DNA of 64,000 bases from Prorocentrum cordatum (Eukaryota). How positions within the stretch are numbered: position 1 is the stretch's first letter; each line of letters starts with the position of its first letter. Location: positions 558,001 through 622,000 of the forward strand of contig CAUYUJ010000248.1 in the NCBI GenBank assembly GCA_963575745.1, written 5' to 3'. Positions 1,953-26,331 of this stretch are shown here, piece after piece. The position numbers and the translations under genes are program-made. The notes beneath the pieces are model-generated. The model was not told the origin of the DNA and made no database searches. It worked only from the letters and a program-made list of their open reading frames with translations.

Positions 1953-1974
1953 TCCGTAGCCATTTTGGCTCAAG
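1953..1974 (+). other. Perfect 22-nt dinoflagellate spliced leader (DinoSL) at the LINE 5' end
   Basis: TCCGTAGCCATTTTGGCTCAAG, 22/22 match to DCCGTAGCCATTTTGGCTCAAG. It is not followed by a GT donor, so it is not an SL RNA gene. Confidence 0.97.
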
Positions 1975-2135
1975 ATGCCTGGTTCCCTTGGGGCCAAAAC
2001 AGATACCGCTAGTCCGCGGCTTGACCTCGAAGTTCTTCGCCTTTACTGCAGGGGTTGGGCACCTGCACCAGTCTCATCCTTTCTCACGGAGGTCCCTCTT
2101 TCGAGGGGTTCATTCGCCTCCACTCACGGTCATTC

Positions 2136-3377
2136 ATGGCCCAAGATGGCTGGCACAGCAGTGGTGGGAAGGCTCGTCAGCAGTACCACGACCCGTGCCC
2201 GCACTGCAAGTACCGCTGGAACTTCAAGAACAACCACTGGTGCTACCAGTGCGCGGGGGCCCTGGTGTCGCAGCCAGACGGTTCGAAGCGGCCGCTTGGG
2301 CAGTGGGCTTTTGGGCCGCCGCAGTTCTCGAACTCGCCGTTCCACGTTCAGCCTGCTGGGTCTCCCTTCGCCGACCCGACGCCGTCGCAGGCGGCAGCGG
2401 CAGCCGCCACGGGCTCAGGCAAAGGTCGTGGCAAGAAAGGCGCTCCGCCGCCATCGCGGGGGAAGGCCAAGGCGAAAGCCGCCGCCTCCGCGGGCCATGT
2501 CGACAGGCGTCCGTGGGTATACCACCAGGGCTGGTACCCGTACGGCGGCGCATCAGCTCCACTCGAGTCAGCCGATCCGATGGCGGCCCTGCGGGCCAAG
2601 CTGGGCGACGACGGCACCGAGGCGCTGGCAGCAGTGGAGGCCCTCCTCGCCAAGAAGGAAGCCCCGCCTCCTGCTGCACCGCGGCAGCCGCTCCTTGAGG
2701 AGGACGTCTCAACCAAGGGGGTGGCGTACCGTCGTGCAAAGTCCTGGCTCGAGCGTCGCTCTCTCAAGGTCTTGGAGGGTGAGGCCTGGCTGCAGGAGGC
2801 GCGTGATGCTGAAGACCTTGCGGTCGCGGCTGCTGTCGAGGCCAAGCGCTCGTGGGAGGAGGCCTGTGCGAAGCAGCTCCCGCAGCCAGTGGCGGCGCCA
2901 CCCGCTGCTGCAGGGGCATCGTCGCTCAACCTGTCCACGCTCCTGGGCGAGGACAGCGAGGTCGAGGGGCTCACCATCGTCGACGGCCCAATTTTCAGCA
3001 CGGAAGGCCTCGACCTCGACCTTGCGGACCTTCGCGAGTGGGATCGAGTTAAGAACAACCTTGCGGCTGGCATCAAGGCAGAGATCTCCAAGGCGCTCGG
3101 CTCTTCAGCAGAGCAGCTCGCTGCTCTTCGAGCGGAGGCCAAGCAGGTGTCCTTGCGGATGCAAGCGAAGCGCAGGCGCGGTGATAGCGCAGGTGATGGC
3201 GCTGGCGCTAGTGCTGCTGCTCAGCCTGGTGGGTCAGCTGCCTCTGGCTCTGTGGGCGACGGCGGCGGCGCTTCCTCAACCGGCGCAGCTGATGGGCCTG
3301 ATGAAGTTCGAGCTGCCGCCAGGCGCACCGCCAAGGAGTCCTTTGACACTACCCGAGCAGCGCAGCAGGGACTTTAG
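2136..3377 (+). CDS. LINE ORF1 protein (RanBP2-like C4 zinc finger, Ala-rich/coiled-coil)
   Basis: MAQDGW...DPCPHCKYRWNFKNNHWCYQC (CxxC...N...CxxC). Intact ORF ending TAG at 3377. Confidence 0.75.
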   Translation: MAQDGWHSSGGKARQQYHDPCPHCKYRWNFKNNHWCYQCAGALVSQPDGSKRPLGQWAFGPPQFSNSPFHVQPAGSPFADPTPSQAAAAAATGSGKGRGKKGAPPPSRGKAKAKAAASAGHVDRRPWVYHQGWYPYGGASAPLESADPMAALRAKLGDDGTEALAAVEALLAKKEAPPPAAPRQPLLEEDVSTKGVAYRRAKSWLERRSLKVLEGEAWLQEARDAEDLAVAAAVEAKRSWEEACAKQLPQPVAAPPAAAGASSLNLSTLLGEDSEVEGLTIVDGPIFSTEGLDLDLADLREWDRVKNNLAAGIKAEISKALGSSAEQLAALRAEAKQVSLRMQAKRRRGDSAGDGAGASAAAQPGGSAASGSVGDGGGASSTGAADGPDEVRAAARRTAKESFDTTRAAQQGL

Positions 3378-3379
3378 CA

Positions 3380-6300
3380 AGTCTACTGATCCTGGCTTGC
3401 CGTCGACCTTTTACGGCGACATCTTCATGAGTGCTGCGGAGGAGCTCGTCTTCGATCCGCAGTTGTACCTAGCCAATCTCTACAAGGTCACGTTGAACGA
3501 GGGCTGCCCTACGACTCAGTATGGTGACATTTTCCGCACTGAGGCGGAGGAGGTTCACTTTCTCCCCGACTTTCAGCCCTTGTCGGGCATTCTTCAGCTT
3601 AAAGATCAGGATCCCCAACGCCGAGCTGCGATTCACCATCGTGAGGTACTTGAGCGGAGTCTCCGCTCTTTCGCTGCCAGATGGATCCCTGACGTTAACT
3701 CAGCGAACGAGGCTTCTGACGAGGACCACTGGGAAGGGCATTGCATTCCCTTCATCTCGACGTGGTTGTCTCATCCGTTGCGAAGTCCGCTTATTCCAGA
3801 AGCAGCCGCTGCAGCAGGTCATGGGAATCCTGCCATTGCAGCTCTTGATATGGCCAGGCGTATCTGTGAGCGCGCTTGGCGCGCTCGGCGCAGCCAGCGT
3901 GCTCGCGATTTGCAGATGCTGCGGAACTTGGAGTCCGAAGATCACGAGTTGTGGCAGGAGGAGCTGCAGCGACAAGCGATGGCGCTCATGGAAGCTCTGG
4001 AGACCCTCGACACCCGGGCGCCGCAGCGGCGCGTGCAGGGCGGCTTCCAGGTGGCATTCCCCTTTTGCGGGCGTCCCCACCTTGCAGCGCCGCCCGACCA
4101 GGGCAGTCAGGTTGCTTGCGCCCCTGCCCTCGGTCGGACGACTGGCTGCGCGAGCTCTTCGGCAAGTTCGTGGCCTGCTTCGCCCTTGGGCGAGGGGCGC
4201 AGGGATTCAGCCCCTGGTCGTCACAGGCCCCCGCCCACAAGTACTACGGCTACTGGCAGTTTGGCTTCAGTTTCCGCGCCTCTTTCGGGTTCGGCCAGTT
4301 TTGCGAAGATTGCCACCTGTGCTTCGGGCACCGCGAGTGGGTCTCAGGAGGCGTCAACAGGATGCCCTTCCAGCACGGGGTGCATTTCCACGGGTGCTTC
4401 GATGGCTCCGCCCTCGACTCAGATGACTTCGGCGCCAGAGGCGGTGGGTCTTGCGTCGGGCTGGGACGACGCAAATCACGACCCCTTCGATGACCTGGAT
4501 CACATGTTGGACGCGGAAGCGGCTGAGTCCATTCACGCCGTGCCCACAGGTACTGAGGGAGCCGAGGAGCCACAACCTGCTGGCCCCCAGGTCCCTGGCC
4601 GCCCTGCTGACCCCCTTCCGCCCGTCGGCTTCAGAAGGAGGATGGGGGGCGTCTCAGGAGCGTGGCCGAAGCTGCCGAGGACTCTAAGTTATTGGAGGAT
4701 GCGGCCCCAGTCCCACAGCTCTCTGTGCTGCAGAAGCTTTCGGGTCGACCTGATCTGGTTGCTCCTCTCGCTGCAGATGCTGGTTCATTTTCTTTTTTGC
4801 ATGGGAATATTACAGGATGGGGTCCACAAGCTCGCAAGCTTCTTAACGCCACCTCGTTTGCCATGGTGTGCTTTGTGGAGATGCACGTGTTACAGTCCAG
4901 GTTTGCTGATGGCGTCGACCAGACCTTTGATGCTGACGAGTGGAACACGGCTTACACGGGCAGCAAGGCTACGGGCAAAGGAGGCTCTTCTGGCGGCGAG
5001 CTTATTGCTATCCGCAAGCACCTGGCCCCCACCAGCTTTCAAAGTATTCGCCAGGCTGCAGTCAGGCTTGGCAAGTCGGATCCATTCCGGGGGCTTGCAC
5101 CCGTGATCCTGCATCTCAGCAGCGGCAATGTGGTTATCGTGGCCATCTATCTCTGACCTGGACTTTCGACATCAGGCCACAACCAGTCTATGTTGATCCG
5201 CTTGGGTGCTTTTCTGTCGGCGTTAGCCGACCCCGGGATTGTTGTTGGCGACTGTAATCTGGGACCTGATGCATTTCTTCGTTCAGGATGGCCCTCGGAG
5301 TTGAAGAGCGAGATTTTGTATCCAGACGTGAAGGTCACCTGCGACAAGGCGGCTCAAGGTGCATTGAGCGATTATGGCTTGGTCAAGCAAGGCACTACAT
5401 ATCGCTTTCGTATGCGAGGTTTTGCGTCAGTTCCTCGGAAGACGCACATCGCCTTGCAGGTTGACAGCATTGGGTCGAAGCGGAGGTGGTGGCATCAGCG
5501 CCTCGTCACGGCACCAGCGTTCCCGACAGTCAGCCGCCCCAAAAAGCAAGCTGACCCAAGCAGTAAGGCCTCGAATAAGAAACAGGAAGCGCTTATGCAA
5601 CGTCGAGCGAAGCTTCCAGAATACCCTCAAGCTGAATTTGACCTACTTCACAAAGCGGCCGCGGCTACGGCGGCAGAAGCTGACTCAGTCTCTTTCTATC
5701 TTCCTGAAGAGGTTTGGCCCTCAGGTGCTATTGCGGTGCCACCGCTCGGGGAGATCAGCCGACGCACGCTGAAGCAACATTTCTTTGGGGACATTAATGC
5801 ATCGGGCTCGTCGCAGCTTATCAGCAGGTACAACACCTGGACTACCAAGATGTAGATGGCCTTCAGTGTTCACCATCAGCAGGAGGACTTCGAGCCTCTG
5901 CGTGGTGCAGGTCCCCAGCTCAAGTGGCAGTTGTCGCAGGCTGCTCCAGGCCGTGCTCATCTCTCTGACCCAGTGGGCGAGCAGTGGGGCATTGTGCACA
6001 CGCTGGTATTGGGGACGGTGTCGCTGGCCAAGCATGGGCGTGACCCCAAGCAGCTGTCCGATTGCTTTCAGCAGCTTCAGCGGCATGTTGCTCATTTTCA
6101 ATCATCAGACAGACCGGGGTATTTTGGCACATCTGGTCAGGAGGAGCGTGATCGCTGGCTTTGTTGGTCGGCCACCATACCCTCGGCCAATCATGATGAA
6201 CCTGACGACTGGTCACATTTGACGGAAAGACTTGCTCATCGGGCGCAGGCGCGCTCTCTCGCAAAGGGCAGGCAACAGTTCACCAAATGGGCCCTTGAGC

Positions 6301-9300
6301 AATGGCGTCAACATCCTGGGCGTCTTCATGCTATGTCTCGTGGCCCTCAGCCCGCGGTGCATGAGAGTTATCGCCATGGGCAGGTCATCTCGGAACCTTG
6401 GAGTTCATGGGCGACAAGCGGAAATATTGGCGATCCTTGTGGACTGACGCAGTTGACGACGTTGAGGCCATCACCCATATGCCTCAGCAGTTGCATTATG
6501 AATCTCGGCGAGACCCCTTGCCTCCCTTGGAGTTGGAGTCTTTGGAGCGAGTGGTGGCCAAGCTTCCTGCGAAGGCCTCTGGAGTCGATGCTCTCACTCC
6601 TCGTGATCTTCAAAGGGCCCCCCCCCCAAGGTCGGGTGGAATTCCTGGAGTTGCTTGACCAAGTGGAGCAGGAAGGAGTTTGGCCAGCGCAGTTGCTTAG
6701 CAAAATTTGCGCTCTCCTTCCCAAACCCAAGGGAGGGGAGAAGGTCATTGGGCTCCTGGCTGGGTCTGCGAAGATCTGGAGCCGCCTGCGCTACGGTGCT
6801 ACCTCAGAGTGGACTGAATGTTTGGAGGCGCGCTGGGACACGGCTATTGCAGGCAGCAGCGCCTTACGCGCCGCTCTCCTGAGGGCTCTACTTGACGAGA
6901 CGGCGACGGTGCTGGGCATCACGGTGGCCACATTGCTGCTGGACTTCGAGAAGTTTTACGACTCCCTGTCCTGGGTCCTTTTGGGTTGCGTTGCGCAGCA
7001 AGTGGGGTGCCCGCCCATTGTGGTATGCCTGGAGGTGCAGTTATGTGTTGGTCCCCGCTTTCTTCGTGGCCAGAAGGGAGCGTCCAACGCCATCCTGCCG
7101 ACTCGGTCGCTAGTGGCGGGTTCCCCCCATGGGGTGCGGTCAGCTAAGCTCTTCCTGCACCCGCTGTTGCAGCGTGCTCAGGCCAGAGCCGATTTTACGA
7201 CCTTGTGGACATTCATCGGCGATTCTGTGTTGCGTTCAGAGGGACCTCAGGATAAGGTAAAGACTCGCATGGTTGCGTCTGCTACTGAGTTCAAGCAGGG
7301 TTTGGATACTATGCGGTTGGTGGTCCCCCCTAAGACGATGCTTATCTCGAGTGTGATCAGCTTGGACATAAAGTTGGCCAAGAAGCTTCGTCACAAGTCT
7401 ATTCCAGTGCAGTATTGTTTGGAGGCGGTAGACCTTGGTGTCGACGCCACAGGTGGTGGACGGAGGACGGTTCGCACATCTTCCCAGCGCACTGCTAACG
7501 CGGCTCGCCGTGCTGCTCGTCTGCAGCGTTTTCGGCGTCATGCACGGCTCCGCAAGGTCTCTCAGGGCCTGTGGAAAACTGGGGCTTTGCCGCAGGCAGC
7601 ATATGGACATCAAGTTCATGGCCTTGCACCCTACCAGCTCCTTCGCCTTCGACGTCAGGCGGCTATTGCAGGAGCAGGCCCGTTGAAGGGCAGGTGCTTG
7701 ACCAGTACATTAGCCATACTGTATGGTCAGAAAGATCCCGCCTTGGAGCTGAGGCGCCAGCTTCTGGCTGAGTATCTGACGGTCTGGCGCCTTCACCCTG
7801 AAGTTCATCAGAGAGTTGAAGCATCCTGGCCGACAGTTCTTCGTCGTCTGGAGATTGCGGGGCGGGCAGGGCGATGGCGATTGGTCAAGGGACCAGTGTC
7901 TGCAGTGATTGCCACGTTGCTTGATGCTGGGTGGAAGCCATCCTCAGCTACTTCCTGGTGGCGCCCAGAGCATGGTGGATTTGCTGAATGGCAGATCCCC
8001 ACATCATCTCTGGGCGGGTTTTCTGGCGATATGATGGATGTGGGCGGAGTGCTGGAGGACGTTATGCTTGATTTTCACGCTCAGCTTTGGTCTCGAGCTT
8101 CTGAGCGCGAGGGAGCTGAAGACCTCGCTGGAGGTGCTGATCTCTATTGGGCTCGCCGAGAGTTTGCGAAGTTCTCGCAGAACGGGGACCGCGACCAGGC
8201 TGGCCAGACACTTTGCGTGGCTGCTGGAGCGCAGCGGCCGCGGGTGCGCCAGTTCCCGACGGGCGCGGAGGAGCAGCAGCGGTGCCCCAGGTGTCTGAAG
8301 GCGCCTGAGACTCTGAGGCACCGCATCTGGGAGTGCGAGTGTAATAAGGATCATGAAGATTATTCCTTGTCCGCTCCCCTAGTGTCTCAAACACTCGTTC
8401 ATTGTCATATGAATCCAGCCTTGTGGCTTAGAGGCGTTCCCCCGACCGACCATACTCACCGTGAGTTTGTGGACCCGCCGGAAGCGGAGGGTTTGAAACC
8501 TCTCGGCTCGACGTCCCTGACCGATATGTCGATTCCCTGGTCGTTTTTGGGGGCGGTTCGGGAGGGCGGTTTTCCTCCGACCGTCGGCGCCGCCGTCGTG
8601 GCGCGGCGGTTGTTTCGGTCAGGAGAACCCCAGGGACGTCTGCGTGGGAAGTGGTCGGGGGCGTTTCTGGAATTCTAGTGGGAAGAGCCCAAACGGTCTC
8701 CCGCTCTGAGTTGTTGGCTTTCGCCTTGTGCCTTGAGGGCACCACTGGCCCCGTTCATTATGTCACGGACCACTTTCCCTTGATTACTGGTTGGGGGCGG
8801 GGTCGGGTTGGTGCTGTGGGCGGGAGGAATTGGGACTTGTGGTTCCGAATTAAGACCGCTCTTGCTTCGCGAGGTGAAGGTTTAGTAACCTTGGAGCGAG
8901 TGGCTTCTCACTTGGACACGGAGGCCGAGGGCCTGGCGGCCCACCAGGTTTTCCTCAGGTCTGGAAATCAACTTGCGGACCGCGCGGCTTCAGAGGCCGC
9001 GGAGCGTTCCTGGCACCTTTCGGCCCGCGCGGACCCTCGAACTGATTTCTGGGATGCTCAGACCGCCCTAATTAGAAGGAGAGCGCGGCGCGCCCTGGTC
9101 GACTCGTCCGCGGCCGACCCCAGGAAGGCCCGCCCTGCGGTTGCGCCCTTGGAGAGAGCGAGGCAGGGTTCGAAGTTGGATCGGGCGCTTCGCGTCTCCC
9201 CTCGAGTTTGTGACGTTCGGCAGCGCGTTTCGTTGCAGGAGTTGCGAGGTGCTGTGTGATAAGAATGACCTCTTAGAGGTCTCCAAGGCGCCGTGCATCC

Positions 9301-9761: not shown

Positions 9762-11028
9762 GCACATGCGTTCCTGCTTGCTGCTCTCTCCCTCTCTTGC
9801 CCTGCCCGCCTCTCGTTGCTCGACGTTGCTTGCCAAAACGTTCCAAAACGTTCCTCCTCCTCCTCCTCCTCCTCCTCCTCCTCCTCCTCCTCCTCCTACT
9901 GCCGGAGGTTGATAGGCCTCCCACCCTGACGCGTCGATTCGCGAATCGGCCGCGTTCGGTTCGCGAGAGGGCGTCGCGGGCGTCGGTTTTTCGGGTGCCT
10001 GGGTCCGTCGGTTTCGGTTTTGGGCCGTTGTCATTAACAAGGGTGGTTTACTGAAAGGAGGTTTGTCCACCGCCGAGACAGGGGGCCGCTGTGGAATTGA
10101 CCGCCTCCCACACGATTCGAGACCCCCCAAATGTCGGAGAAGGAATATCGGCATAAGTTCGGACGCGACTCATGGCAGGTCAAATTCTGACTCTGCCCTC
10201 GTCCAAAATCCGGCTTCATCCGGTTTGCTCCCGCTTAGTCCGGCGTAATACCGTTCTATCCCGCTTAATCCCGTTTAATTCGAGGCCCACTCCGGGGCAA
10301 CCGCCCCCCCAATGGGGCTTCATTATTTTTAGTCATTCCGACGAAAAACTCCTGGTAGTTACCTCCTAAAGCAGAAGAGCAAGTTCTCGGAACTCCGCGC
10401 GGGCGTCTTGGATCTGCTCTCGGGGTCCCCTTCCGCGGCGCCGCCCGGCGCGCTCCGCGCGCTGGGGAGGGGGGGGGGTCCGGCACCGATCCAAGATGAT
10501 GGGCTTGTTTTCCACCACCACCAGTAGAAGTTGAAGAGAGGGGGTCCTCCTCCTCCTCCACCACCTCCTCCTCCTCCTCCTCCTTTTCCTCCTCCTCCTC
10601 CTCTTCGTCCTCCTCCTCCTCCTCCTCCTCCTCATCCACATCCACATCCTCTTCCTCCTCCTGCTCCTCCTCCTCCTCCTCTTCGTCGTCCTCCTCCTCT
10701 TCCTCGTCTTCCTCCTTCCCCCATCCAATTTGTGGTGGTACTGGTGGAAGACAGGCCCATCACCAGAGGTCCGCGCGGAGCTCCGGAAGTTTGTGCATAC
10801 GCAGTCAATTATTCATAGTTTCTCCTGGGAGGCCCTCGCCGTCACGGCTGGGTTCGCCTCGGAGTTCTGGTCAGAGCGCGCCTCGGGTCGCAGGACTGCG
10901 CCGCACTGATACCTTGCCATTGCGCTGCGACCTGCAGCCCGCCCTCGCCGATGCATCGGTGGTGCGTTGGCGATGCGGCGTGATCCTCCGACCCCGTCTG
11001 CGCCGCCCCCATGTGGGAGACCTCCAAG

Positions 11029-12715
11029 GAGGCGATTCCCAATGTCGTCTTCCTGACCGGTCCGTGGGACCCACTGAACGTGGTGCAGAGGTCCGCGGAG
11101 GTGTTGCCGAAGGGTGCGGAGTTCCGCTTCTACAACTACTCCCAGATGGACCAGTCGGTCCTGGAGATCTCCCCGCTCCTCGAGCGGGAGGGCGTCTACA
11201 ACGTCTAGGGGGACGAAGAAGGACAGAAACATAAAAGCTCGGAGGTCCGAGCGGATTTCTCGGATCCGAGCTGGACCCCCCTTGCGGCGCCTCCGGCGCC
11301 GCCCCTGGCGCGCTCCGCGCGCCAAGGAGGGGTGTCCAGCGCCGATCCGGGAAATCCGCGCAGACCTCTGAGTTTTTATGTTTATGTCGTTCTTCGTCAC
11401 CCTAAACGTCAGCGACGCCTTCCAGAGCCTGCGCCCACGGTCTTTCCGCACGGACCTGTGGCGCTACATGGTCCTCTGGCAGAGCGGGGGCATTTATTTT
11501 TAAGTCGGGCTTGTCCTTCTTCAGGAGGAAAATTTTCAAATAGTCCAAACATCATCAGGGGACGATGTTTTGATTATGTTGTGCTAGTTTGTTCTACTTT
11601 TTGATAATTTTTTATTTTTCGTCCCAAATCCGCCTGTGGGAGGACACGCCCGACCTAAATCTATCTGGATGCCAAGATTGCCCTTACCGCTCCTGTCTCC
11701 ACCTGGGTCGACCAGCAGCGAGACTCCCTCGCGGTGTGCTGGGACAGGAAGCAGAGAGCCGAGATGTACTGGACCGCCATGCTGGCCGCGCGGAGGGGCA
11801 GCCCAACCCTGCTGGCCATCATAAGGCAGATCGTCTCGAACGTGCAGGCGCGCTACTACGGGCCGCCGCGCGGCGTGGACCACGCCGACCTGTACATCAC
11901 GGGCCGGGGCATGCTGACGGAGGTCCTGCGCAGAGAGACGCCGCGGGGCCTCCGCTCGAGCTGCAGGCTGCACGTGAGCCAGATGTGGAAGGTGAATATC
12001 CCGGAGTCAAAGGTCAGCTCGGTTCGCCTTAAAAACGCCCTGTACGTTTTCGTTAGCGTTTCCTGCTTTGGGCTCTTGACAGGCTGAACACGCAAACAAA
12101 AGCGCTACGTGTTTTTCTGCGTTTTCAGGGCTGTCGGTTGGGCGTTTTGTTTTGTTTCCCCTTCCAGGCTGAAAACGCCGAAGAACTGGAAACGCGAAAG
12201 CAACGAATCATTGTTTTAGCGTTGTAGTTGTTTCTGTTGAGACTTGAAACGCGAAACAATGATTTCCAAGACGCCGAGCTGAAAACGCTAAAGAAAGCCC
12301 TGGGCATATTCAAGGCGGCCCAAGAAGGTCAGGGAGACCACCGGCCGCAAGCGCGTCATTGCGGAGGTCGACGAGGATGTGCACAGGGCCATGCGGTCTT
12401 GCGACAACTGCGACTCCTACGGGTCCCTGTTCCAGCGGCACCAGGTCTACTGCAGCGAGCGGGGTCCCAGGTGAGCGACGCAAAAGAAAACGGGTTCGAC
12501 TGCGCCGACATTCGCGCGTCAGCTCCCCGCGTAAGGTCGCGCGCAAGCGCCCTCGTCTCCAATGTGGTGTGCCGCTCTGGCGGCCCGCGTAAGCTGCGGC
12601 GTACGGCTGCTGTGCCATCTCGCGTGAGACCCGTTTGTGATCGTCGCTCAGGTGCCAATTCTCAGTCACCCCATTGCCGCCGGCAGAGAGGTACGCGTCC
12701 CTGGTGGTCTCGTGA
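11029..12715 (+). CDS. Glycosyltransferase, GT32/Gly_transf_sug-like, 5'-partial; coding blocks 11029-11205, 11411-11491, 11659-12012, 12328-12470, 12652-12715
   Basis: Removing each insert plus one TSD copy gives one open frame: EAIPNVVFLT...AFQSLRPRSFRTDLWRYMVLWQSGGIYLDAK...AMLAARRGSP...LYITGRGML...YGSLFQRHQVYC...LVVS*. DLWRY..L...GGIYLD is the GT32 signature. The last two introns are GT-AG. The first two lack precise canonical sites, so it may be a pseudogene. Confidence 0.8.
11206..11404. mobile_element. MITE family B with ~70-bp TIRs and 6-bp TSD AACGTC, inside the GT gene
   Basis: Start TAGGGGGACGAAGAAGGACAGAAACATAAAAG matches the reverse complement of the end. Related copies at ~10367-10820, 18910-19075, 20675-20884, 20929-21313. 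Confidence 0.85.
11500..11658. mobile_element. MITE family A (hAT-like, ~160 bp, 8-bp TSD), inside the GT gene
   Basis: TTAAGTCGGGCTTGTCC...GGACACGCCCGACCTAA; TSD ATTTATTT/ATCTATCT. Confidence 0.9.
12018..12324. mobile_element. TIR element forming a precise GT-AG intron (12013-12327), TSD AAGGTCAG
   Basis: Perfect 8-bp TSD (12010-12017, 12325-12332) containing AG|GT; imperfect TIRs CTCGGTTCGCCTT/AAGGCGGCCCAAG. Confidence 0.85.
12472..12650. mobile_element. TIR element forming a GT-AG intron (12471-12651)
   Basis: Ends TGAGCGACG...CGTCGCTCA are perfect inverted repeats that supply the splice dinucleotides. Confidence 0.75.
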
Positions 12716-13072
12716 GGCGACGGCCCGTTGTCGCGGGGCTCTCCCCCGCCGCCACCCCGTGCCACGACACCCATCGCCGTCCACGCACGTGGCAGGTCGC
12801 GGCAATGGCGATCCTCGGGACCGAGGCGCTATCCCAGGGGTGGAAAATCGGCTCAAACATAAATACACGCTCATGATCTAGAACATATCTGAACATATGG
12901 GGAATGGAGGGGTGGAGGGCACTCCAGGAAGTACGTACACATCCATGGGGAATCGTGTAAGCAGTGCGATATGTTGTGTTTCGTTCAGGGCTCCCTCTGC
13001 CCCTGCACCTCCTTCGTCCTGGGCGCCCGTTCCGTGCTTCCTGCTTCCTCGGTCCAGGGGCACCTTTTGGCT

Positions 13073-13231
13073 CTAAGTGGGGCCTGTCCCTCCACAGGAG
13101 GAGCATCCAGAATCGCCCAGCGAGAGTATGGGGACGATGGCTTGACCATTCTTGGAACATGTGTGAACCTTTTTGTTGTACCTTGCAGGTCTCCTCCAAC
13201 CCCAGCCTGTTGGGGGACACCCCCGACCTAA
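13073..13231. mobile_element. MITE family A copy
   Basis: CTAAGTGGGGCCTGTCCCTCCACAGGAGG...GGGGGACACCCCCGACCTAA. Confidence 0.8.
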
Positions 13232-15166
13232 CACCCTGGCATCTTGCCGCGTCCTGCGCTCGGGAGTTGTGCCTCGGCGCGTCGCGCGCGCGCGCCGGCC
13301 CTGGCACCGCCGCGCCGCGGCGCGGCGTGCCAACCACGCCCCGGTGTGCAAGCTCTATAGACGACGGCCAGCGGAGAGGAGGCCTGTTGCCAACTGACTC
13401 CCAGATGCCTAAAGCATGCTCAAGACGTGTTTTGAACCCGTAACGAATTTTTCCACGCACACGTTGATGTCAACTAATTTCCAGGTGTCTAGAAATGTTC
13501 AACACATGTCTTGAACAGGTAGAACACATGTTTTAAACATGTGGCTTCATTTTTCCATGCACCTGTTGAAGACATGCCTTTTCAACAGGTATAACACTTG
13601 CCTTAAAACATCTTGAGCACATGTTTAATGTAATGATGGGATTGCTAGGTTGTCCATGGTCCTGGCATCCACCATCCGAGCTGCAGCGTCCCGAGCATCC
13701 CGTCGGGCCTTCCGCCCCACAGGGCGGAGCGCCGCACACCGTCCGCCTACCGGGGAACAGCTTGCCGCGGTGGCCGCCGCCGCGACTCGCTCCTCTCAAA
13801 AGCTCCCGACCGCAGGTGCGTTCCACCTTTGTGCTCCGCGCCCGCGCCAGCGCCCGCGCCCGCGCTCGCGCTCGCGCTCGCGCCCGCGCGAGCAGTTCAC
13901 CGGCCGCCTGAGGTCGCGCGGGCCCGCCCACGAGCCGAGGAAGCGCTGCCTGGGAGTTCCCTGCAGCCCGGACGCCGGAGCGAGGACCGCTCTGGGCTAA
14001 GAAGGGTCTCGCTGTTCCTCAGGTCATGCCATGGTTGTTTCTATAGCTGTTCTCGTGCACCCGGGTTCTTCTGGTGCAACAAATGACCTCGTTCCACACA
14101 CTGAGGGCCTTACGGCCGGCACAGCCAACCCAGAAGGACTACGACAACAGCCACGACGACGACCACCACGACAACGAGAACGACGAGCCCATGACCTTGC
14201 CACACGCTCGGGACATGGGGCGGGCGGTGGAGGAGGAGGAGGAGGAGGAGGAGGTGGAGGAGGAGGAGGAGGAGGAGGAGAGAGAGAGAGGAGATGGAGG
14301 AGGAGGCGGAGGAAGAGGAGTAGGAGAAGGAGGAGTAGGCGGCGGAGGAGGAGTCGTAGAGGAGGAGGAGGAGGAGGAGGAGGTGGAGGAGGACCAGAGT
14401 CAGAGTCAGAGTCAGAGGAGGAGGAGGAGGAGGAGGAGGAGGAGGGGGAGGAGTCCTGAGGTGTTTCGCCGTTTCCGGCCTCTCGGGGCCCTCCACGGGC
14501 CCCCCCTGGGCCCCATGGGCCCTCCACGGCTCCAGGACGGAGAGCTGGTCTCTGGGGGAGACACCGGTGTCCAGGGCCCCTCGGGACCCGTGCCCCCGAC
14601 GCTAAGAGGAAGCGGAGGGAGGGAGACATGTTTTGCATCGCGGCGCGGCGGAGGCGGCCCGCTCGCGCGTGCGGGCGGTGCAGGCGGCGGAGAGCGCAAA
14701 TGGACCCGCGGCAGGCGGAGGGGAGTGAAGACAGGCGACGGCGGCCGCGAGGGAGGAGGGAGGGCGGGGAGGGCACCCACATGGCGAGCTGCGTCGGCCT
14801 TGCGGCACATCTAAGCGTCGGCCTGTTCGGGGATTCGTGTTCGCTGTGTGTGTCGGCCTGTTCGGTGAGTCGTGTTCGCTGTGTGTGTGTTTGTGTGTGT
14901 TTGGTGTTTGTGTGTTTGGTGTGTGTGTGTATGTGTGTGTGTGTGTGTGTGGGTGTGTGGGTGTGTATGTGTGTGTGTGTGTGCGTGTGTGTGTGTGCGA
15001 GGTGCGTCGCCGTGGAGCGGCCGGGGCGGCCAGCCAGTGCTGCACCCCCTGGCAGCGGGCGCGGGGCGGCGTCACGGCGGGACGCCTCGGGCAGCTGGGA
15101 AGTGCGGCTCCTCGGCGCAAGTTGGGCGGCCGCGGGCAGGCACGCTGGTGCCCCACGCCCCTACGC

Positions 15167-18662: not shown

Positions 18663-19575
18663 GGGCGGCGACACGGCCACCAGGGGCAGAAACAGGCGCG
18701 GCACGAGGGAGGGAAAAACGGAGGGGGGGAGTCGAACAGCAGACAACGGCACGCACGTGACGAGTTCCAGGCAGAAGGTGCTTCGCCTCCGAGGATCGAG
18801 GGGGTTGCCATCCCTTCCCTGGCGGCTGGCTGGTGGAGGCCGGCGGAGGCAGAAGTCGCCCCTCCAGGAGACGGCAATGTTTGTGTCAGGGCCTCCGGCA
18901 CCCGCCACTCTTTTTCTCGGAGCTCCGAGCAGATATCTTGGATCGGCGCTGGGCCCCCTTTCTTAGCGGCGCTTCTGGCGCCGCCCCCCGGCGCGCGCCG
19001 CGGTGCAACGCCAATCCAGGAATCTGCGCGGAGTTTAGACAAATCATGTTTGTGCTGCTGTTGGGTTTTCCTAGGGAGGGCATGCATCCCCCTGGTCGCC
19101 AATGCGGTGCTCCCCTCCCTGTTTCCATTCCCCCCCCGTACGTTTTTCTGTTGTTTCTCTCTCACACACACACTCTCTCTCTCTCTCTCCACCCCCCTGC
19201 CCTCCCTGCTCCCGCGACGCCCATTTGCCCCGCCACCTCCCCCGCTCAGCCCCCTCCTCTCCCGGATGCAGGTCCGCGCCGTGTCAGCCTAGTGGCCTCC
19301 TCAGCGCGGGCGTTCAAGGTAGAACGCCGCCAGTGGCTCTGGAATCGACCGCTTTCGAACGATCCGCGCTCTCGGAAAGCTGCGATCGCTCAATCGGGAG
19401 GAACAAGCGCACAGGCACAAGTAACCATCGACCCGCAGGAACATGTGGGACAGTATGGGAAGTGGAGGGGGGCAGACGAAATCAAGAAAACATGCGAAAC
19501 TATTGGGATCCCTGGGACTTGTGCCTACATCTGCGTGTGTGTGTGTGTGCCTACATCTGCGTGTGTGTGTGTGTG

Positions 19576-20318: not shown

Positions 20319-20340
20319 TCCGTAGCCATATCGGCTCGAG
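20319..20340 (+). other. Spliced-leader relic (duplicated at 20501-20521)
   Basis: TCCGTAGCCATATCGGCTCGAG, 19/22 match to DinoSL. Confidence 0.85.
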
Positions 20341-20346
20341 GCAGCA

Positions 20347-20500
20347 TCAAGTCGGGCATGTCCCTCTGCAGGAGGAATGTTCAGAAATAGTCAAGATATA
20401 GTCTGGGGACGATTCTTCAATTTTTTTGAGTCTATATCTTCTGACTAGTTCTTAATGTGTCCTTTCATAGTCCGCCTGTAGGAGGACATGCCCGACCTAA
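20347..20500. mobile_element. MITE family A copy flanked by a 26-bp duplication
   Basis: TCAAGTCGGGCATGTCC...GGACATGCCCGACCTAA between two copies of CCGTAGCCATATCGGCTCGAGGCAGC. Confidence 0.88.
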
Positions 20501-20605
20501 CCGTAGCCATATCGGCTCGAGGCAGCGCTCTGGCGCACGTCGGCGTGGCATCCCGCGGCGCGAAGGTCACCGCGGGGGTCGCGGCACCTGGCATGCGGCC
20601 CGCGC

Positions 20606-21792
20606 ATGGAGGAGGAGCTGTGCCGACACGGCTTGGTGCACGAGACCGTCGGTGACGCTTTCGACGCGGAGGACTCGAGGAAGGAGAAACGCCACGAGCA
20701 TAAAAATGTTGGCGCTCCGCGCGGATTTCTTGGATCCGCGCTGGGCCCCCCCGGCAGAGCCTCGGGCGGCGCCCCTGGCACGCTCCGCGCGCCAGGGAGG
20801 GGGGGTCCAGCGCGGACCCAAGAAATCCGCGCGGAGCGCCAAGAGTTTATGTTCATGGTGTGTGTTTGTTTGGTTCTTCTTCTAAGGACAGCGCAGACTG
20901 GGCTTCGAATTTGCGGCAGTCGCTCTTCCCGAGGAAGGGAACGCGGCATACAGACAACTTCTCCGAGCTCCGCGCGAATGTCTCCGAGAGCGGCGTTGGG
21001 CCCCCATGTGGCGGCGCTCCCGGCGCCGCCCTGCCGCACGCCAGGGAGGGGGCCCAGCGCCGATCCAAGAAATCTGCGCGGGCTCCGATAATGCGGGATG
21101 ACGATTAATGAAAATATGGGAGGGAACGATTAAAGCATAGTTTGCTGCTAGTTCTGCACAATCTTCTGACTGGAGGAGAACGATTAAAAACATAGTTTTC
21201 CAGCCCGCGGCCGGTTTTTTTCCAATCGTCATCCCGGGCGCTTGCGTGACCGGGGGTCATTTACTAATCGTCATCCTCCATTACTTTTTCATGTATGCAG
21301 TTTTCTCCTCCTGCCCTCACGAGCGAGTCGTTCAACACGCTGCACCGGTACTCCCTGGACGTGGCGAAGACGCCGTTTCCGCGGTACGTGGTGCCCGCGC
21401 TGCTGGCAGCCGTCGAGCGGCCCCTGCTCGGGCACTTCGGCCTCAGCGCGGGCGACCTCACCCTGGACTCCGGCTTCTTCATCTCCTACGAGGAGGGCTC
21501 CAATCAGGTCTTGCGGCGGCACGTCGACAAGTGCCTCTTCACCCTGAACCTCTTCCTCGAGGCCTCCGAGGACTTGAGGGGCACCGAGGTGCGCTTCCAC
21601 GGCCTGAGGCGCCTGCGCACGAACGACAGCGTCGAGGGTGGGCCAGAGACGATCGACTTCGGCAGCTTTGCGCCCGGCACCGTCCTGATGCACTGGGGCC
21701 AGCACGAGCACGAGACCCTGCCCTGGAGGGGCGGCGTGCGGAGCAGCGTGGTGCTCTGGTTTCGCCACGACGGGCCTGCGGTCCGGGAGTGA
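20606..21792 (+). CDS. 2OG-Fe(II) oxygenase family protein (PLOD/OGFOD2-like fold); exons 20606-20671, 20887-20933, 21324-21792
   Basis: HxD...H...R motifs: LRRHVDKCLFTLNLFL...GTEVRF...GTVLMHWGQHEHETLPWRGGVRSSVVLWF. Two AG|GA...AG introns join in frame; the second boundary is less certain. SL relic ~85 nt upstream. Confidence 0.8.
21089..21283. mobile_element. MITE family C nested in a family B copy (inverted copy at 23573-23776)
   Basis: TIR TAATGCGGGATGACGATTA / TAATCGTCATCCTCCATTA. Confidence 0.85.
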
Positions 21793-25490: not shown

Positions 25491-26331
25491 TTCGGCGTCG
25501 GGCCTGTCCCCCCTGCAGGGGGAATTTCGACGAACAATATCAAGAGTACCTAAAAAATAATCAAGCATAGCCCCAAAATAGTCTGGGGACTATTTTTTTA
25601 ATACTTCTCGCCTTTTTGGGGCATTCCTTTTTTAATATATATATATATATATATATTAATCGTCGAACATCCCCCTGTAGGGGGACAGGCCCGACCTAAA
25701 GCCAGAGTCCAGTGTCGGGCCTGTCCCTCTGCAGGAGGAAGGCTTCGGAGTCGTCAAGAACATGCCTTCGGGCCTGTTTTTGTCGACCGTGCTCGATTAT
25801 TTTTGTTGGGGCATTGTTTTGGGCTAGTTTTGCGTTGCCTCCCCCAGGCCTCGTTCTGAGGCTGCGCCCCCCTTTTCCTCCCCCATCTCTGTTTAATTCA
25901 AGCTTCGCGCGGCCCGCTTAGCTTCGACCGGAAGAGGTGCGCTCTCGACCCGCGGTTAAAACATTTTTTGGGCTAGTTTTCATTTTCCCTGCCACAGCCG
26001 CCCGACGGAGTCAATCCGGGCCTGTCCCTCTGCAGGAGGAATGTTCCAGAATAGTCCAACAACTAGTCTGGAGAGGATCTGTTTAAATTATGTCATTATT
26101 ATTGGGGTTTTTTGGGGGGCGATTTGTCGTTCGTCCTCCCAAAGCCGCCTGCAGGGGGGCACGCCCGACCTAAATTTAAGTCGGGCCCGTCTCTCGACAG
26201 GAGGAATATCCAAACACAGTCCAGCAAACAGTCTGGGGACTATGTTTTAGTACTCTTGACCATTTGGGGTGTATGTTTTAAGTTTTTTGCTGTCGTCGAG
26301 AATCCCCTGTAGGGGGACACGCCCGACTTAA
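25491..26331. mobile_element. Cluster of four family A MITEs (25491-25699, partial ~25708-25830, 26011-26173, 26176-26331)
   Basis: Repeated GTCGGGCCTGTCCC...GGGACA(C/G)GCCCGAC ends. Further solitary right ends at ~27096-27126, 28094-28124, 36290-36308. Confidence 0.8.

What the first reader, a model, noticed from the sequence alone, without database searches (positions are those of the whole stretch)
11200..11666. Two inserts with no precise canonical splice solution inside an otherwise intact ORF
Seen: for the family A MITE (11500-11658) in-frame TAA codons lie at both ends, and no G[TCA]..AG pair keeps GGIYLD. For 11206-11404, exact removal needs GT..AC, or GT..AG with loss of 6 codons. 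Yet the flanking exons have no stops or frameshifts, and the two TSD differences (ATTTATTT/ATCTATCT) are both synonymous. Inference: either hairpin/direct-repeat-guided non-canonical splicing, as described for the parasitic dinoflagellate Amoebophrya, or a young pseudogene. DAK instead of DxD and TGRG instead of TGPG are compatible with either.
Basis: partly seen in the sequence, partly recalled or inferred. Interest (0 to 1): 0.72.

Follow-up and report, generated by a model that had tools for sequence, protein, structure and literature searches.

The report
Transposon inserts cut exactly from mRNA
Two small transposons sit inside the coding exons of a dinoflagellate sugar-transferase gene without usable splice signals, yet RNA-derived contigs lack both of them to the base, so this alga appears to remove such inserts by an unusual kind of splicing.

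Summary
A + strand PF04488-type glycosyltransferase gene is interrupted by two elements. One is a 199-nt palindromic element (11206-11404) flanked by AACGTC repeats. The other is a 159-nt family A MITE (11500-11658) flanked by an 8-bp duplication, ATTTATTT/ATCTATCT. No GT/GC/GA..AG pair removes either exactly.

Contigs from four sequencing runs of four studies, one a documented polyA RNA-Seq library, each join 11199>11405 (205 nt skipped) and 11494>11662 (167 nt skipped). That is the element plus one repeat copy. They match the exons with 0-1 mismatches over about 900 nt and also skip two ordinary GT..AG introns. The allowed borders are AA..TA to TA..TC for the first insert, with GT..AC the only one starting in G. 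For the second they are TA..TC, AT..CT, TT..TA or TT..AT.

The processed message encodes 278 residues. It is collinear with 10 homologues across both joints and keeps 67 of 72 family-invariant positions. The MITE is old: 84% identity to a local consensus, and its duplication has diverged at 2 of 8 positions.

The pseudogene reading is therefore rejected and non-canonical excision, as in Amoebophrya, is favoured. The machinery is unknown. A MITE-free gene copy and a reverse-transcriptase artefact are not fully excluded.

The parts
11029..11205 (+). Coding exon upstream of insert 1. The frame is open from 10984. ATG 11011 may not be the true start, because the RNA contigs begin at 11022-11036.
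   Evidence: Translation. Contig pieces 11022/11027/11036-11199 with 0 mismatches. Aligns to the IPNV..FTGPW..EFR region of the homologues.
11200..11205 (+). Left copy of the 6-nt direct repeat AACGTC (putative target-site duplication of insert 1).
   Evidence: Read. The joint ambiguity 'both = 6' equals this repeat.
11206..11404 (+). Insert 1: a 199-nt palindromic, MITE-like element (TAGGGGG...CACCCTA) that is absent from the RNA contigs.
   Evidence: 96-nt arms, 82% complementary. Fold -185.3 kcal/mol, z -15.2. Four partial relatives in the window (10386-10492, 18916-19002, 20703-20857, 20961-21079). Joint 11199>11405 skips 205 nt in 4 of 4 runs.
11405..11410 (+). Right copy of the direct repeat AACGTC.
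11411..11491 (+). Coding exon between the two inserts, matching the core of the Gly_transf_sug domain.
   Evidence: Pfam PF04488, E 1.8e-4. Contig piece 11405-11494 with 0 mismatches.
11492..11499 (+). Left copy of the 8-bp target-site duplication (ATTTATTT). The mRNA keeps at least positions 1-3.
11500..11658 (+). Insert 2: a 159-nt family A MITE (TTAAGTCGGGC...GCCCGACCTAA) that is absent from the RNA contigs.
   Evidence: TIR 31 nt, 81%. 9 full copies in the window with 8-bp duplications. 84% identical to the local majority consensus. Joint 11494>11662 skips 167 nt in 4 of 4 runs. Depth is 0 at 11503-11569 in all 4 runs.
11659..11666 (+). Right copy of the 8-bp target-site duplication (ATCTATCT). 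The mRNA keeps at least positions 7-8.
11667..12012 (+). Coding exon 3. It contains the polymorphic site 11906 (G here gives Arg; C in run X15 gives Pro).
   Evidence: Translation. Contig piece 11662-12009. Homologues.
12013..12327 (+). Ordinary GT..AG intron, 315 nt, flanked by the exact 8-nt repeat AAGGTCAG that supplies both splice sites. Transposon-like in origin.
   Evidence: Register table. Joint 12009>12325, cut +3 = GT..AG. Its ends pair. No other copy in the window.
12328..12470 (+). Coding exon 4.
   Evidence: Translation. Contig piece 12325-12467. Aligns to the conserved Cys-rich C-terminal region.
12471..12651 (+). Ordinary GT..AG intron, 181 nt, flanked by the 6-nt repeat CAGGTG (12468-73 / 12649-54). 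Its ends pair.
   Evidence: Joint 12467>12649, cut +3 = GT..AG, both = 6. Fold.
12652..12852 (+). Last coding exon (stop TGA at 12713-12715) and 3' UTR up to the contig ends at 12785-12852.
   Evidence: The processed message has its only stop at codon 279. Contig pieces 12649-12785/12818/12839/12852.

Best explanation
Two non-autonomous DNA transposons landed inside coding exons of an expressed glycosyltransferase gene of a dinoflagellate. One is a 199-nt palindromic element with a 6-bp duplication. The other is a 159-nt family A MITE with an 8-bp duplication.

Both are transcribed with the gene and then removed from the RNA together with exactly one copy of the duplicated target. The message therefore reads as it did before the insertions. 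The borders cannot be GT/GC/GA..AG or AT..AC, so these are non-canonical introns of the kind described for Amoebophrya.

Shown:
- the anatomy of the inserts;
- the exact joints in RNA-derived contigs;
- the intact, conserved product;
- the age of the MITE.

Inferred:
- that removal happens in the cell on the RNA of this locus;
- that the terminal inverted repeats fold into a hairpin that places the two repeat copies side by side and so defines the cut sites;
- that the catalyst is either the spliceosome working without its usual dinucleotides or a separate cut-and-ligate activity.

The data cannot tell these two catalysts apart.
For: (a) Joints in RNA-derived contigs. In each of X1, X2, X12 and X15 (4 of 4 laid runs, 4 studies; X15 is on record as polyA RNA-Seq, the others are guessed RNA) one contig of 896-958 nt joins 11199>11405 (205 nt, ambiguity 6) and 11494>11662 (167 nt, ambiguity 3). 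The same contig skips the two GT..AG introns. It has 0 mismatches in three runs and 1 in X15.

(b) Share of words held. 20 of 24 listed runs from 8 studies hold part of the stretch, and none holds half or more of its words. Fourteen hold 0.45-0.48. By my arithmetic the exons make up 0.53 of the stretch, so these runs hold about the exons only.

(c) Allowed borders. Insert 1: AA..TA, AC..AA, CG..AA, GT..AC, TC..CG, CT..GT or TA..TC. Insert 2: TA..TC, AT..CT, TT..TA or TT..AT. Brute force finds no exact GH..AG solution.

(d) The product is functional-looking. It has 837 nt and 278 codons, with a stop only at the end. There is no gap against 10 homologues at either non-canonical joint. 67 of 72 invariant columns are kept; homologues left out one at a time keep 72 of 72-83.

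(e) The insertion is old. Insert 2 is 84% identical to the majority consensus of 9 copies, mean pairwise identity among copies is 66%, and the duplication has diverged at 2 of 8 positions. A gene copy that split off before the insertion should therefore differ in the exons, yet the contigs are identical to the window.

(f) No contig covers the unique interior of insert 2. Depth is 0 at 11503-11569 in all 4 runs, where exon contigs have depth 15-221 and a contig bridges the gap. This argues against retained RNA that a reverse transcriptase merely skips.

(g) X1, X2 and X12 carry the window's G at 11906, while the environmental run X15 has C. That ties the culture-type transcripts to this allele.

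(h) Both inserts fold as hairpins far better than shuffles.

(i) Precedent: RNA-seq-supported non-canonical introns with inverted and direct repeats in Amoebophrya (PMC7789003, passages read).
Against: - All RNA evidence is from assembled contigs, not reads. Contigs drop rare forms and cannot show strand, level or absence.
- Three of the four laid runs are only guessed to be RNA.
- No DNA run of the organism and no genome were available. I could not show that the genome lacks a MITE-free or processed copy with identical exons. The table of joined forms in DNA runs was not given.
- A stable hairpin flanked by direct repeats is exactly the substrate on which reverse transcriptases switch template (PMC2923612, abstract read). 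The joint of insert 2 is what such a switch within TAT would give.
- The age estimate rests on a noisy consensus of 9 diverged copies and on 2 substitutions in 16 nt.
- Only one locus was tested.
- No lariat, circle or cleavage product was seen, so the mechanism is wholly inferred.
- Pairing between the exons beside the joints is not above chance, so nothing beyond the element's own inverted repeat supports guidance by structure.
Confidence: 0.72

Rival explanations
1. The transcripts come from another gene copy without the two inserts (an empty-site paralogue or allele, or a processed retrocopy). The window's copy is silent or a pseudogene.
For: Dinoflagellate genes are often multi-copy (general knowledge; Dougan 2023, PMC10666404, passages). 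No genome or DNA run was available to exclude a second copy. The mRNA's ATTTATCT could equally be the ancestral target, if each duplication copy later took one substitution.
Against: The contigs match the window's exons 0-1/~900 nt. Meanwhile the MITE is about 16% from its family consensus and its duplication has diverged at 2 of 8 positions. A copy that separated before the insertion should therefore show many exon differences.

A recent duplicate would carry the MITEs too. A retrocopy presupposes an mRNA from which the inserts had already been removed.

X1, X2 and X12 share the window's Arg allele at 11906. There is no paralogue in the 64-kb window.
Confidence: 0.1
2. Laboratory artefact. 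The mature RNA keeps both hairpins and reverse transcriptase jumps between the direct repeats at the base of each hairpin during cDNA synthesis. In the cell the gene would then be broken by the in-frame TAG and TAA.
For: Both inserts have the two features that favour template switching: a stable hairpin and flanking direct repeats. Apparent non-canonical splicing is produced this way in vitro (PMC2923612, abstract). The joints fall inside the repeats.
Against: Four runs of four studies dated 2015 to 2025 give the same single joined contig, and no contig covers the unique interior of insert 2 (depth 0 at 11503-11569 against exon contig depth 15-221). Random-primed libraries of fragmented RNA would sample that interior if it were present.

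The hairpin of insert 2 is modest (31-nt arms, 81%; z -4.1) and its repeats share only 3 perfect nt at the joint.

Cores of other copies of the insert 1 family are abundantly present in the same runs (summed depth up to 13181), so such hairpins can be copied.

The reading frame has stayed intact and conserved (67/72 invariant positions) although the MITE is old.
Confidence: 0.08
3. Young pseudogene. The gene was recently disabled by two insertions and is not processed into a working message.
For: In-frame stops at both inserts. A few deviations at otherwise invariant positions: P175R, P190L, A65V, V32L, I151V.
Against: RNA-derived contigs with both inserts removed exactly. The insertion is not young. 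93% of invariant positions are kept, and three of the five changes are conservative. P175R is a polymorphism that reverts to Pro in X15. DAK is shared by all 10 homologues.
Confidence: 0.03
4. Excision at the DNA level. Some genome copies or cells lose the elements precisely, by slippage between the direct repeats across the hairpin or by transposase, and only those templates give stable mRNA.
For: Direct repeats flanking a palindrome are the classical substrate for precise excision by replication slippage in bacteria (recalled, not checked here).
Against: Such events are rare, yet the joined form is the only one assembled in 4 of 4 runs. The chimeric use of the two diverged duplication copies would have to recur identically. 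The assembled genome carries both inserts. No programmed DNA elimination is known in dinoflagellates (recalled).
Confidence: 0.03

Closest known systems
Non-canonical introns / introner elements of Amoebophrya A25 and A120 (Farhat et al. 2021, PMC7789003; passages read)
   Same: RNA-supported removal of intervening sequences without GT..AG. Inverted repeats pair the two intron ends into a hairpin. Short direct repeats overlap the borders, so the exact cut cannot be placed. The elements form repeated, MITE-like families without a transposase. No common border dinucleotides.
   Different: The host here is a free-living, plastid-bearing core dinoflagellate whose annotated introns follow GT/GC/GA..AG. 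The direct repeats are 6 and 8 nt (3-5 nt there). The inverted repeats are 31 and 96 nt (8-20 nt there). Only one gene was examined here, against more than 60% of introns there. The same gene also has transposon-like introns with ordinary GT..AG.
Introners of dinoflagellates and other protists (Roy et al. 2020 preprint, doi 10.1101/2020.10.14.339549, parts 1-2 read; Gozashti et al. 2022, PMC9860276, passages)
   Same: DNA-transposon families with TIRs and 3-8-nt target duplications that insert into exons and are removed so that mRNA length is unchanged. 8-nt-duplication classes exist in Polarella. Introns 12013-12327 and 12471-12651 of this gene fit this scheme exactly (AG|GT inside the duplication).
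   Different: Every described class recruits GH at the 5' end and AG at the 3' end from the element, the duplication or the flank. Inserts 1 and 2 have no such solution.
Identically repeated intron boundaries of dinoflagellates (Mendez et al. 2015, PMC5032977; passages read)
   Same: A 2-9-nt repeat at both intron ends is kept once in the mRNA, which leaves the cut ambiguous.
   Different: Those repeats always contain GG, usually AGG, at the splice point, which is compatible with the spliceosome. AACGTC and ATYTATYT do not.
Nonconventional introns of Euglena (Nomura et al. 2025, PMC12501133; abstract and introduction read)
   Same: Frequent introns without GT..AG, whose ends base-pair and which are excised by unknown machinery.
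   Different: The Euglena signature 5'-N3CDG.../...CH'GN5-6|R is not present in any allowed register of either insert (read). No link to transposon duplications was given in the parts I read.
Non-canonical, MITE-derived introns of the tunicate Fritillaria borealis (recalled; only mentioned in passages of PMC7789003)
   Same: Transposon-derived introns with unusual border dinucleotides in an organism that also has ordinary introns.
   Different: According to the passage read, a majority there share an AG-A(N) pattern. No shared pattern can be claimed here (n = 2). I did not read the paper.

Membership tests
Amoebophrya-type non-canonical introner elements (Farhat 2021) | Removal supported by RNA data | tested here: met
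   One bridging contig in each of 4 of 4 laid runs from 4 studies. These are contigs, not reads.
Amoebophrya-type non-canonical introner elements (Farhat 2021) | Borders differ from GT..AG | tested here: met
   Allowed registers listed. None is GH..AG or AT..AC.
Amoebophrya-type non-canonical introner elements (Farhat 2021) | Inverted repeats (8-20 nt) between the 5' and 3' intron ends that form a hairpin | tested here: met
   31-nt and 96-nt arms, which are longer than defined. Fold z-scores -4.1 and -15.2.
Amoebophrya-type non-canonical introner elements (Farhat 2021) | Direct repeats of 3-5 nt overlapping the exon/intron borders | tested here: inconclusive
   Direct repeats are present and overlap the borders, but they are 6 nt (exact) and 8 nt (6/8), outside the stated length range.
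Amoebophrya-type non-canonical introner elements (Farhat 2021) | Repeated family spread over the genome, without a transposase gene | tested here: met
   Family A has 9 full and about 10 partial copies in 64 kb. Insert 1 has 4 partial relatives. The elements are 159-199 nt, too short to encode a protein.
Introners sensu Huff 2016 / Roy 2023 | Transposon insertion with a target duplication that creates the intron | tested here: met
Introners sensu Huff 2016 / Roy 2023 | Spliceosomal GT/GC/GA..AG borders carried by the element or recruited from the duplication | tested here: not met
   Not met for inserts 1 and 2. Met for the two downstream introns of the same gene.
U12-type (AT..AC) introns | A at +1 and C at -1, with the conserved RTATCCTY 5' site | tested here: not met
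   No register gives AT..AC. The 5' ends read GTCTAGGG / TATTTTTA.
Euglena nonconventional introns | Signature 5'-N3CDG.../...CH'GN5-6|R | tested here: not met
   Checked by eye on all allowed registers against the signature in the abstract.
tRNA/HAC1-like endonuclease-ligase introns (bulge-helix-bulge) | Two bulges separated by a 4-bp helix at the cut sites | tested here: inconclusive
   Insert 1 has a 4-bp ACGU/ACGU helix between a 4x4 loop and a mismatch at the stem base, which could mimic the motif in register 0. Insert 2 shows nothing comparable in its allowed registers. The motif definition is recalled.
hAT-like MITE (family A) | 8-bp target-site duplication and short terminal inverted repeats | tested here: met
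   Flanks match 8/8 in 3 of 9 copies, 7/8 in 1, 6/8 in 1 and 5/8 in 1; 3 are unclear. TIR TTAAGTCGGGC... That 8 bp points to hAT is recalled.
hAT-like MITE (family A) | Termini shared with an autonomous element that encodes a hAT transposase | not tested
No genome is held.
Glycosyltransferase, Pfam PF04488 (Gly_transf_sug) | Match to the family profile | tested here: inconclusive
   Exon 2 alone scores 22.6 bits against a cut-off of 23, E 1.8e-4. All 16 homologues listed at E <= 1e-10 carry PF04488 precomputed. The window protein is 45-55% identical to the 10 of them that were aligned. The joined protein itself was not scanned.
Glycosyltransferase, Pfam PF04488 (Gly_transf_sug) | DXD motif | tested here: not met
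   D-A-K in the window and in all 10 homologues. This is a trait of the dinoflagellate subfamily, not a lesion.

The most novel reading that the evidence does not exclude
Core dinoflagellates have an RNA excision route that does not read splice dinucleotides. It recognises a transposon's terminal hairpin and removes it together with one target-duplication copy, which makes MITE insertions in coding exons phenotypically silent. A rule of 'hairpin plus about 3 nt on each side', or a UA..UC border, would fit both inserts.

The 'canonical' introners, whose duplication happens to contain AG|GT, would then be a subset of what this route handles. Gene models built with GT/GC/GA..AG only would systematically miss or break such genes.
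Probability: 0.3. Interest if true: 0.85.

Novelty: new member of a known kind. Interest (0 to 1): 0.68.

Why it matters
Dinoflagellate genomes are annotated on the assumption that introns start with GT, GC or GA and end with AG. The Prorocentrum cordatum gene models were built with tools restricted in this way (PMC10666404, methods passage and supplement passages). All introner classes in the Polarella/Symbiodinium study also use such borders. Introns without any fixed borders have so far been reported in dinoflagellates only for the parasite Amoebophrya, which also seems to lack U1.

If a free-living bloom-former removes transposons from exons with no such signals, three things follow:
- the trait is older or more widespread than thought;
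- many genes with exonic MITEs are probably mis-annotated as broken or split;
- the very high load of transposons and introns in these genomes becomes easier to understand, because an insertion into coding sequence need not be harmful.

This locus is also a compact test case. One gene carries two signal-less and two ordinary transposon-type introns side by side, and the diverged duplication of insert 2 narrows the cut to four positions.

I found no report of this for Prorocentrum in searches, nor in the papers read. Subscription papers, the published version of Roy et al. 2023 and bioRxiv supplements were not seen.

Tried and rejected
- Whole-genome search for further copies or empty sites: no genome is held.
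- Exact 40-nt exon pattern and a protein-guided scan of metagenome contigs: 0 loci.
- Looking for this organism's own predicted protein in the protein collection. It is absent; only homologues of at most 55% identity were found.
- Exon-exon base pairing beside the joints as a guide. The apparent 10-bp helix at insert 1 is not beyond chance: 11th-15th percentile of 521 controls. Insert 2 lies at the 65th-70th percentile. Rejected.
- A shared bulge-helix-bulge geometry: possible for insert 1, absent for insert 2. Rejected as a common rule.
- Euglena code and U12 borders: not met.
- Nested (stwintron-like) canonical splicing. It is impossible because the first and last nucleotide of every allowed register exclude G..G.
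- Survey of other exonic MITEs in the window. Of the 187 open frames of 150 aa or more, 121 were scanned and none has a Pfam hit at 1e-5. Frames spanning the excised junctions of the 9 family A copies are uninformative, because GC-rich DNA is open in many frames.
- Rfam on 10300-13300: no match at E <= 1.
- Depth over the arms of insert 1 (11206-11234, 11369-11404) exceeds what the exon contig explains in X1 and X2. I attribute this to spill-over from very deep contigs of other family copies, but could not check it.
- An 11-nt exact complementarity between insert 1 (11215-25) and insert 2 (11512-22), and a possible common UA..UC border: noted, with n = 2, and not pursued.
Full report
WHAT IS THERE

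The window is GC-rich DNA (about 60%). Earlier notes of this scan assign it to the dinoflagellate Prorocentrum cordatum; I did not test that, and no genome is held for it.

On the + strand a reading frame that is open from 10984 encodes a protein of the Gly_transf_sug family. Exon 2 alone matches PF04488 at E 1.8e-4, just under the cut-off. A 337-residue MMETSP protein and 15 further proteins, all with PF04488, are its relatives.

The frame is broken twice.

At 11206 an in-frame TAG opens a 199-nt element. It is almost a perfect palindrome: 96-nt arms, 82% complementary, and a fold of -185.3 kcal/mol, z -15.2 against 200 shuffles. It is flanked by the exact repeat AACGTC.

At 11500 a 159-nt element begins and ends with in-frame TAA codons. 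It has 31-nt terminal inverted repeats (fold z -4.1). It is flanked by ATTTATTT / ATCTATCT.

THE INSERTS ARE TRANSPOSONS

The second element belongs to a family with 9 full-length and about 10 partial copies in this 64-kb window. All full copies have TTAAGTCGGGC-type ends. Their 8-bp flanks match 8/8 in 3 of the 9 copies, 7/8 in one, 6/8 in this one and 5/8 in one; three are unclear. This is the anatomy of a MITE; that an 8-bp duplication suggests the hAT superfamily is recalled knowledge.

The copies are old. Mean pairwise identity is 66%, and this copy is 84% identical to the majority consensus.

The first element shares its GC-rich core with four other places in the window.

Two further introns of the same gene, 12013-12327 and 12471-12651, are also bounded by exact direct repeats (AAGGTCAG, CAGGTG) and have pairing ends. 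There the repeat contains AG|GT, so an ordinary GT..AG intron results. This is the published 'introner' scheme.

NO CANONICAL SOLUTION

Removing element plus one repeat copy allows 7 registers for insert 1: AA..TA, AC..AA, CG..AA, GT..AC, TC..CG, CT..GT and TA..TC. It allows 9 for insert 2, none starting with G.

A brute-force list of all in-frame, stop-free GT/GC/GA..AG pairs gives 18 solutions for insert 1. None is exact, and the closest, 11203..11425, loses 6 codons. It gives 46 solutions for insert 2. None keeps GGIYLD, and the closest loses 13 codons.

WHAT THE RNA SHOWS

Public runs were ranked on 11011-12470. Twenty of the 24 listed runs, from 8 studies, hold part of it, and none holds half or more of its words. 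Fourteen hold 0.45-0.48. By my arithmetic the exons make up 0.53 of the stretch, so these runs hold about the exons only.

I laid four runs from four studies on 10900-12900. X15 is on record as a polyA RNA-Seq metatranscriptome; X1, X2 and X12 are guessed to be RNA.

In each run a single contig of 896-958 nt runs from 11022-11036 to 12785-12852. It shows four joints:
- 11199>11405: 205 nt skipped, 6 ambiguous letters;
- 11494>11662: 167 nt skipped, 3 ambiguous letters;
- 12009>12325: 315 nt, GT..AG;
- 12467>12649: 181 nt, GT..AG.

The contigs have no mismatch to the window in X1, X2 and X12 and one in X15.

Because the two copies of the 8-bp duplication differ, the second joint is pinned down. 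The message reads ATT TAT CTG, taking the left copy at position 3 and the right copy at position 7. The removed piece is therefore 11495-11661, 11496-11662, 11497-11663 or 11498-11664, with borders TA..TC, AT..CT, TT..TA or TT..AT.

No contig at 90% likeness or more covers 11503-11569 in any of the four runs, where the exon contigs have depth 15-221.

THE PRODUCT IS A GOOD PROTEIN

The blocks given by the contigs add up to 837 nt, which is 278 codons with a stop only at the end (12713-15). Aligned with 10 homologues (45-55% identity), there is no gap at either non-canonical joint.

67 of the 72 columns invariant in the homologues are kept. The five lost are V32L, A65V, I151V, P175R and P190L. 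Homologues left out one at a time keep 72 of 72-83.

The 'missing' DxD (D-A-K) is shared by all ten homologues. The Arg in TGRG is a polymorphism: X15 has C at 11906, which gives the family's Pro.

WEIGHING THE EXPLANATIONS

A young pseudogene is excluded by the RNA contigs, by the age of the MITE and by the conservation.

A MITE-free paralogue or allele as the source of the transcripts is unlikely. The MITE and its duplication have diverged by some 12-16% since insertion (2 of 16 duplication letters), while the contigs are identical to this locus over about 900 nt. A copy that split off before the insertion should differ, and a recent duplicate should carry the inserts. A retrocopy would itself need a correctly processed message. 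Without the genome this rival cannot be closed, and I give it 0.10.

Template switching by reverse transcriptase is the classical source of 'introns' bounded by direct repeats (PMC2923612, abstract), and both inserts are ideal substrates. Against it:
- four studies dated 2015 to 2025 give one and the same joined form;
- the unique interior of the modest hairpin of insert 2 is absent from all four;
- cores of other copies of the insert 1 family are abundant in the same runs, so such hairpins can be copied;
- the frame has been kept intact.

I give it 0.08. Excision at the DNA level gets 0.03.

This leaves removal from the RNA in the cell at 0.72.

HOW IT MAY WORK

Shown: each removed piece is a hairpin plus exactly the length of its target duplication, and G..G and A..C borders are impossible.

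Inferred: the inverted repeats fold and bring the two repeat copies together at the base of the stem, and cutting and joining happen there.

I tested three ideas for further guidance. Exon-exon pairing is not above chance. A bulge-helix-bulge shape is conceivable for insert 1 only. The Euglena code is absent.

Two simple rules fit both inserts but rest on n = 2. One is a cut 3 nt outside the paired stem on each side (GT..AC for insert 1, AT..CT for insert 2). The other is a common UA..UC border.

Whether the catalyst is a tolerant spliceosome, as discussed for Amoebophrya, or an endonuclease-ligase pair is open.

COMPARISON WITH WHAT IS KNOWN

The closest match is the class of non-canonical introner elements of Amoebophrya A25/A120: RNA-supported, no fixed borders, inverted plus direct repeats, and MITE-like families (PMC7789003). 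The differences are longer repeats, a free-living core dinoflagellate as host, and coexistence with ordinary transposon-type introns in one gene.

The published dinoflagellate introner classes and the 'identically repeated intron boundaries' (PMC5032977) all keep AG|G-type borders.

The P. cordatum genome paper reports introner elements in 2.4% of introns, but it used tools restricted to GT/GC/GA donors.

I found no report of border-free introns in Prorocentrum in searches or in PMC9860276 and PMC12130899. I did not see the published version of Roy et al. 2023 or the bioRxiv supplements.

I did not test it; it suggests that this locus is not unique.

VERDICT

I rate it as a new member of a known kind, with interest 0.68. 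The evidence comes from one locus and from contigs only, and the decisive controls (genome-wide copy search, direct RNA, junction peptides) are still to be done.

Noticed in passing
window 11011-11036: All four RNA contigs start at 11022-11036, downstream of the ATG at 11011. X1 has 5 unaligned letters upstream of 11027, while X2 follows the genome to 11022. This suggests a 3' splice site at AAG|G (11028/11029) and an undetected upstream exon for the signal/anchor region that the homologues have. ATG 11011 is then probably not the start.
   Followed up: partly
window 11906: G in the window and in runs X1, X2 and X12, but C in the environmental polyA run X15. This turns Arg into the family-invariant Pro of the ITGP motif, so the cultured lineage may carry a slightly impaired allele.
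   Followed up: partly
window 11235-11368: The GC-rich core of the insert 1 family is covered in RNA-type runs by contigs from other copies (90-95% alike), with summed depth up to 5583 (X1) and 13181 (X2). Many copies of this hairpin family are therefore present in RNA pools and not removed.
   Followed up: no
window 10540-10720 and 14220-14450: Long CCT-type and GGA-type microsatellite tracts flank the gene in inverted orientation about 3.5 kb apart. A (TG)n tract follows at 14870-15000.
   Followed up: no
window 26011-26331: Two family A copies lie head to tail, separated by 2 nt. This is either a nested or adjacent insertion, or a preference for inserting next to a resident copy.
   Followed up: no
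window 20322-20525: The family A copy at 20347-20500 is flanked by a 23-nt direct repeat (GTAGCC...GGCAG) instead of a plain 8-bp duplication.
   Followed up: no
window 11215-11225 and 11512-11522: There is an exact 11-nt complementarity (GAAGAAGGACA / TGTCCTTCTTC) between the arms of the two unrelated inserts. In insert 2 this stretch departs from the family consensus. It may be chance in purine-rich sequence.
   Followed up: no
window 13074-13232: A further diverged family A copy lies just downstream of the gene's 3' UTR. Family A density in the window is about one copy per 3-4 kb.
   Followed up: no
window 1960-5103 and 5856-8675: Two very long open frames on the + strand (1048 and 940 aa) have no Pfam match at 1e-5. 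They may be a lineage-specific gene or mobile element upstream of the glycosyltransferase gene.
   Followed up: no
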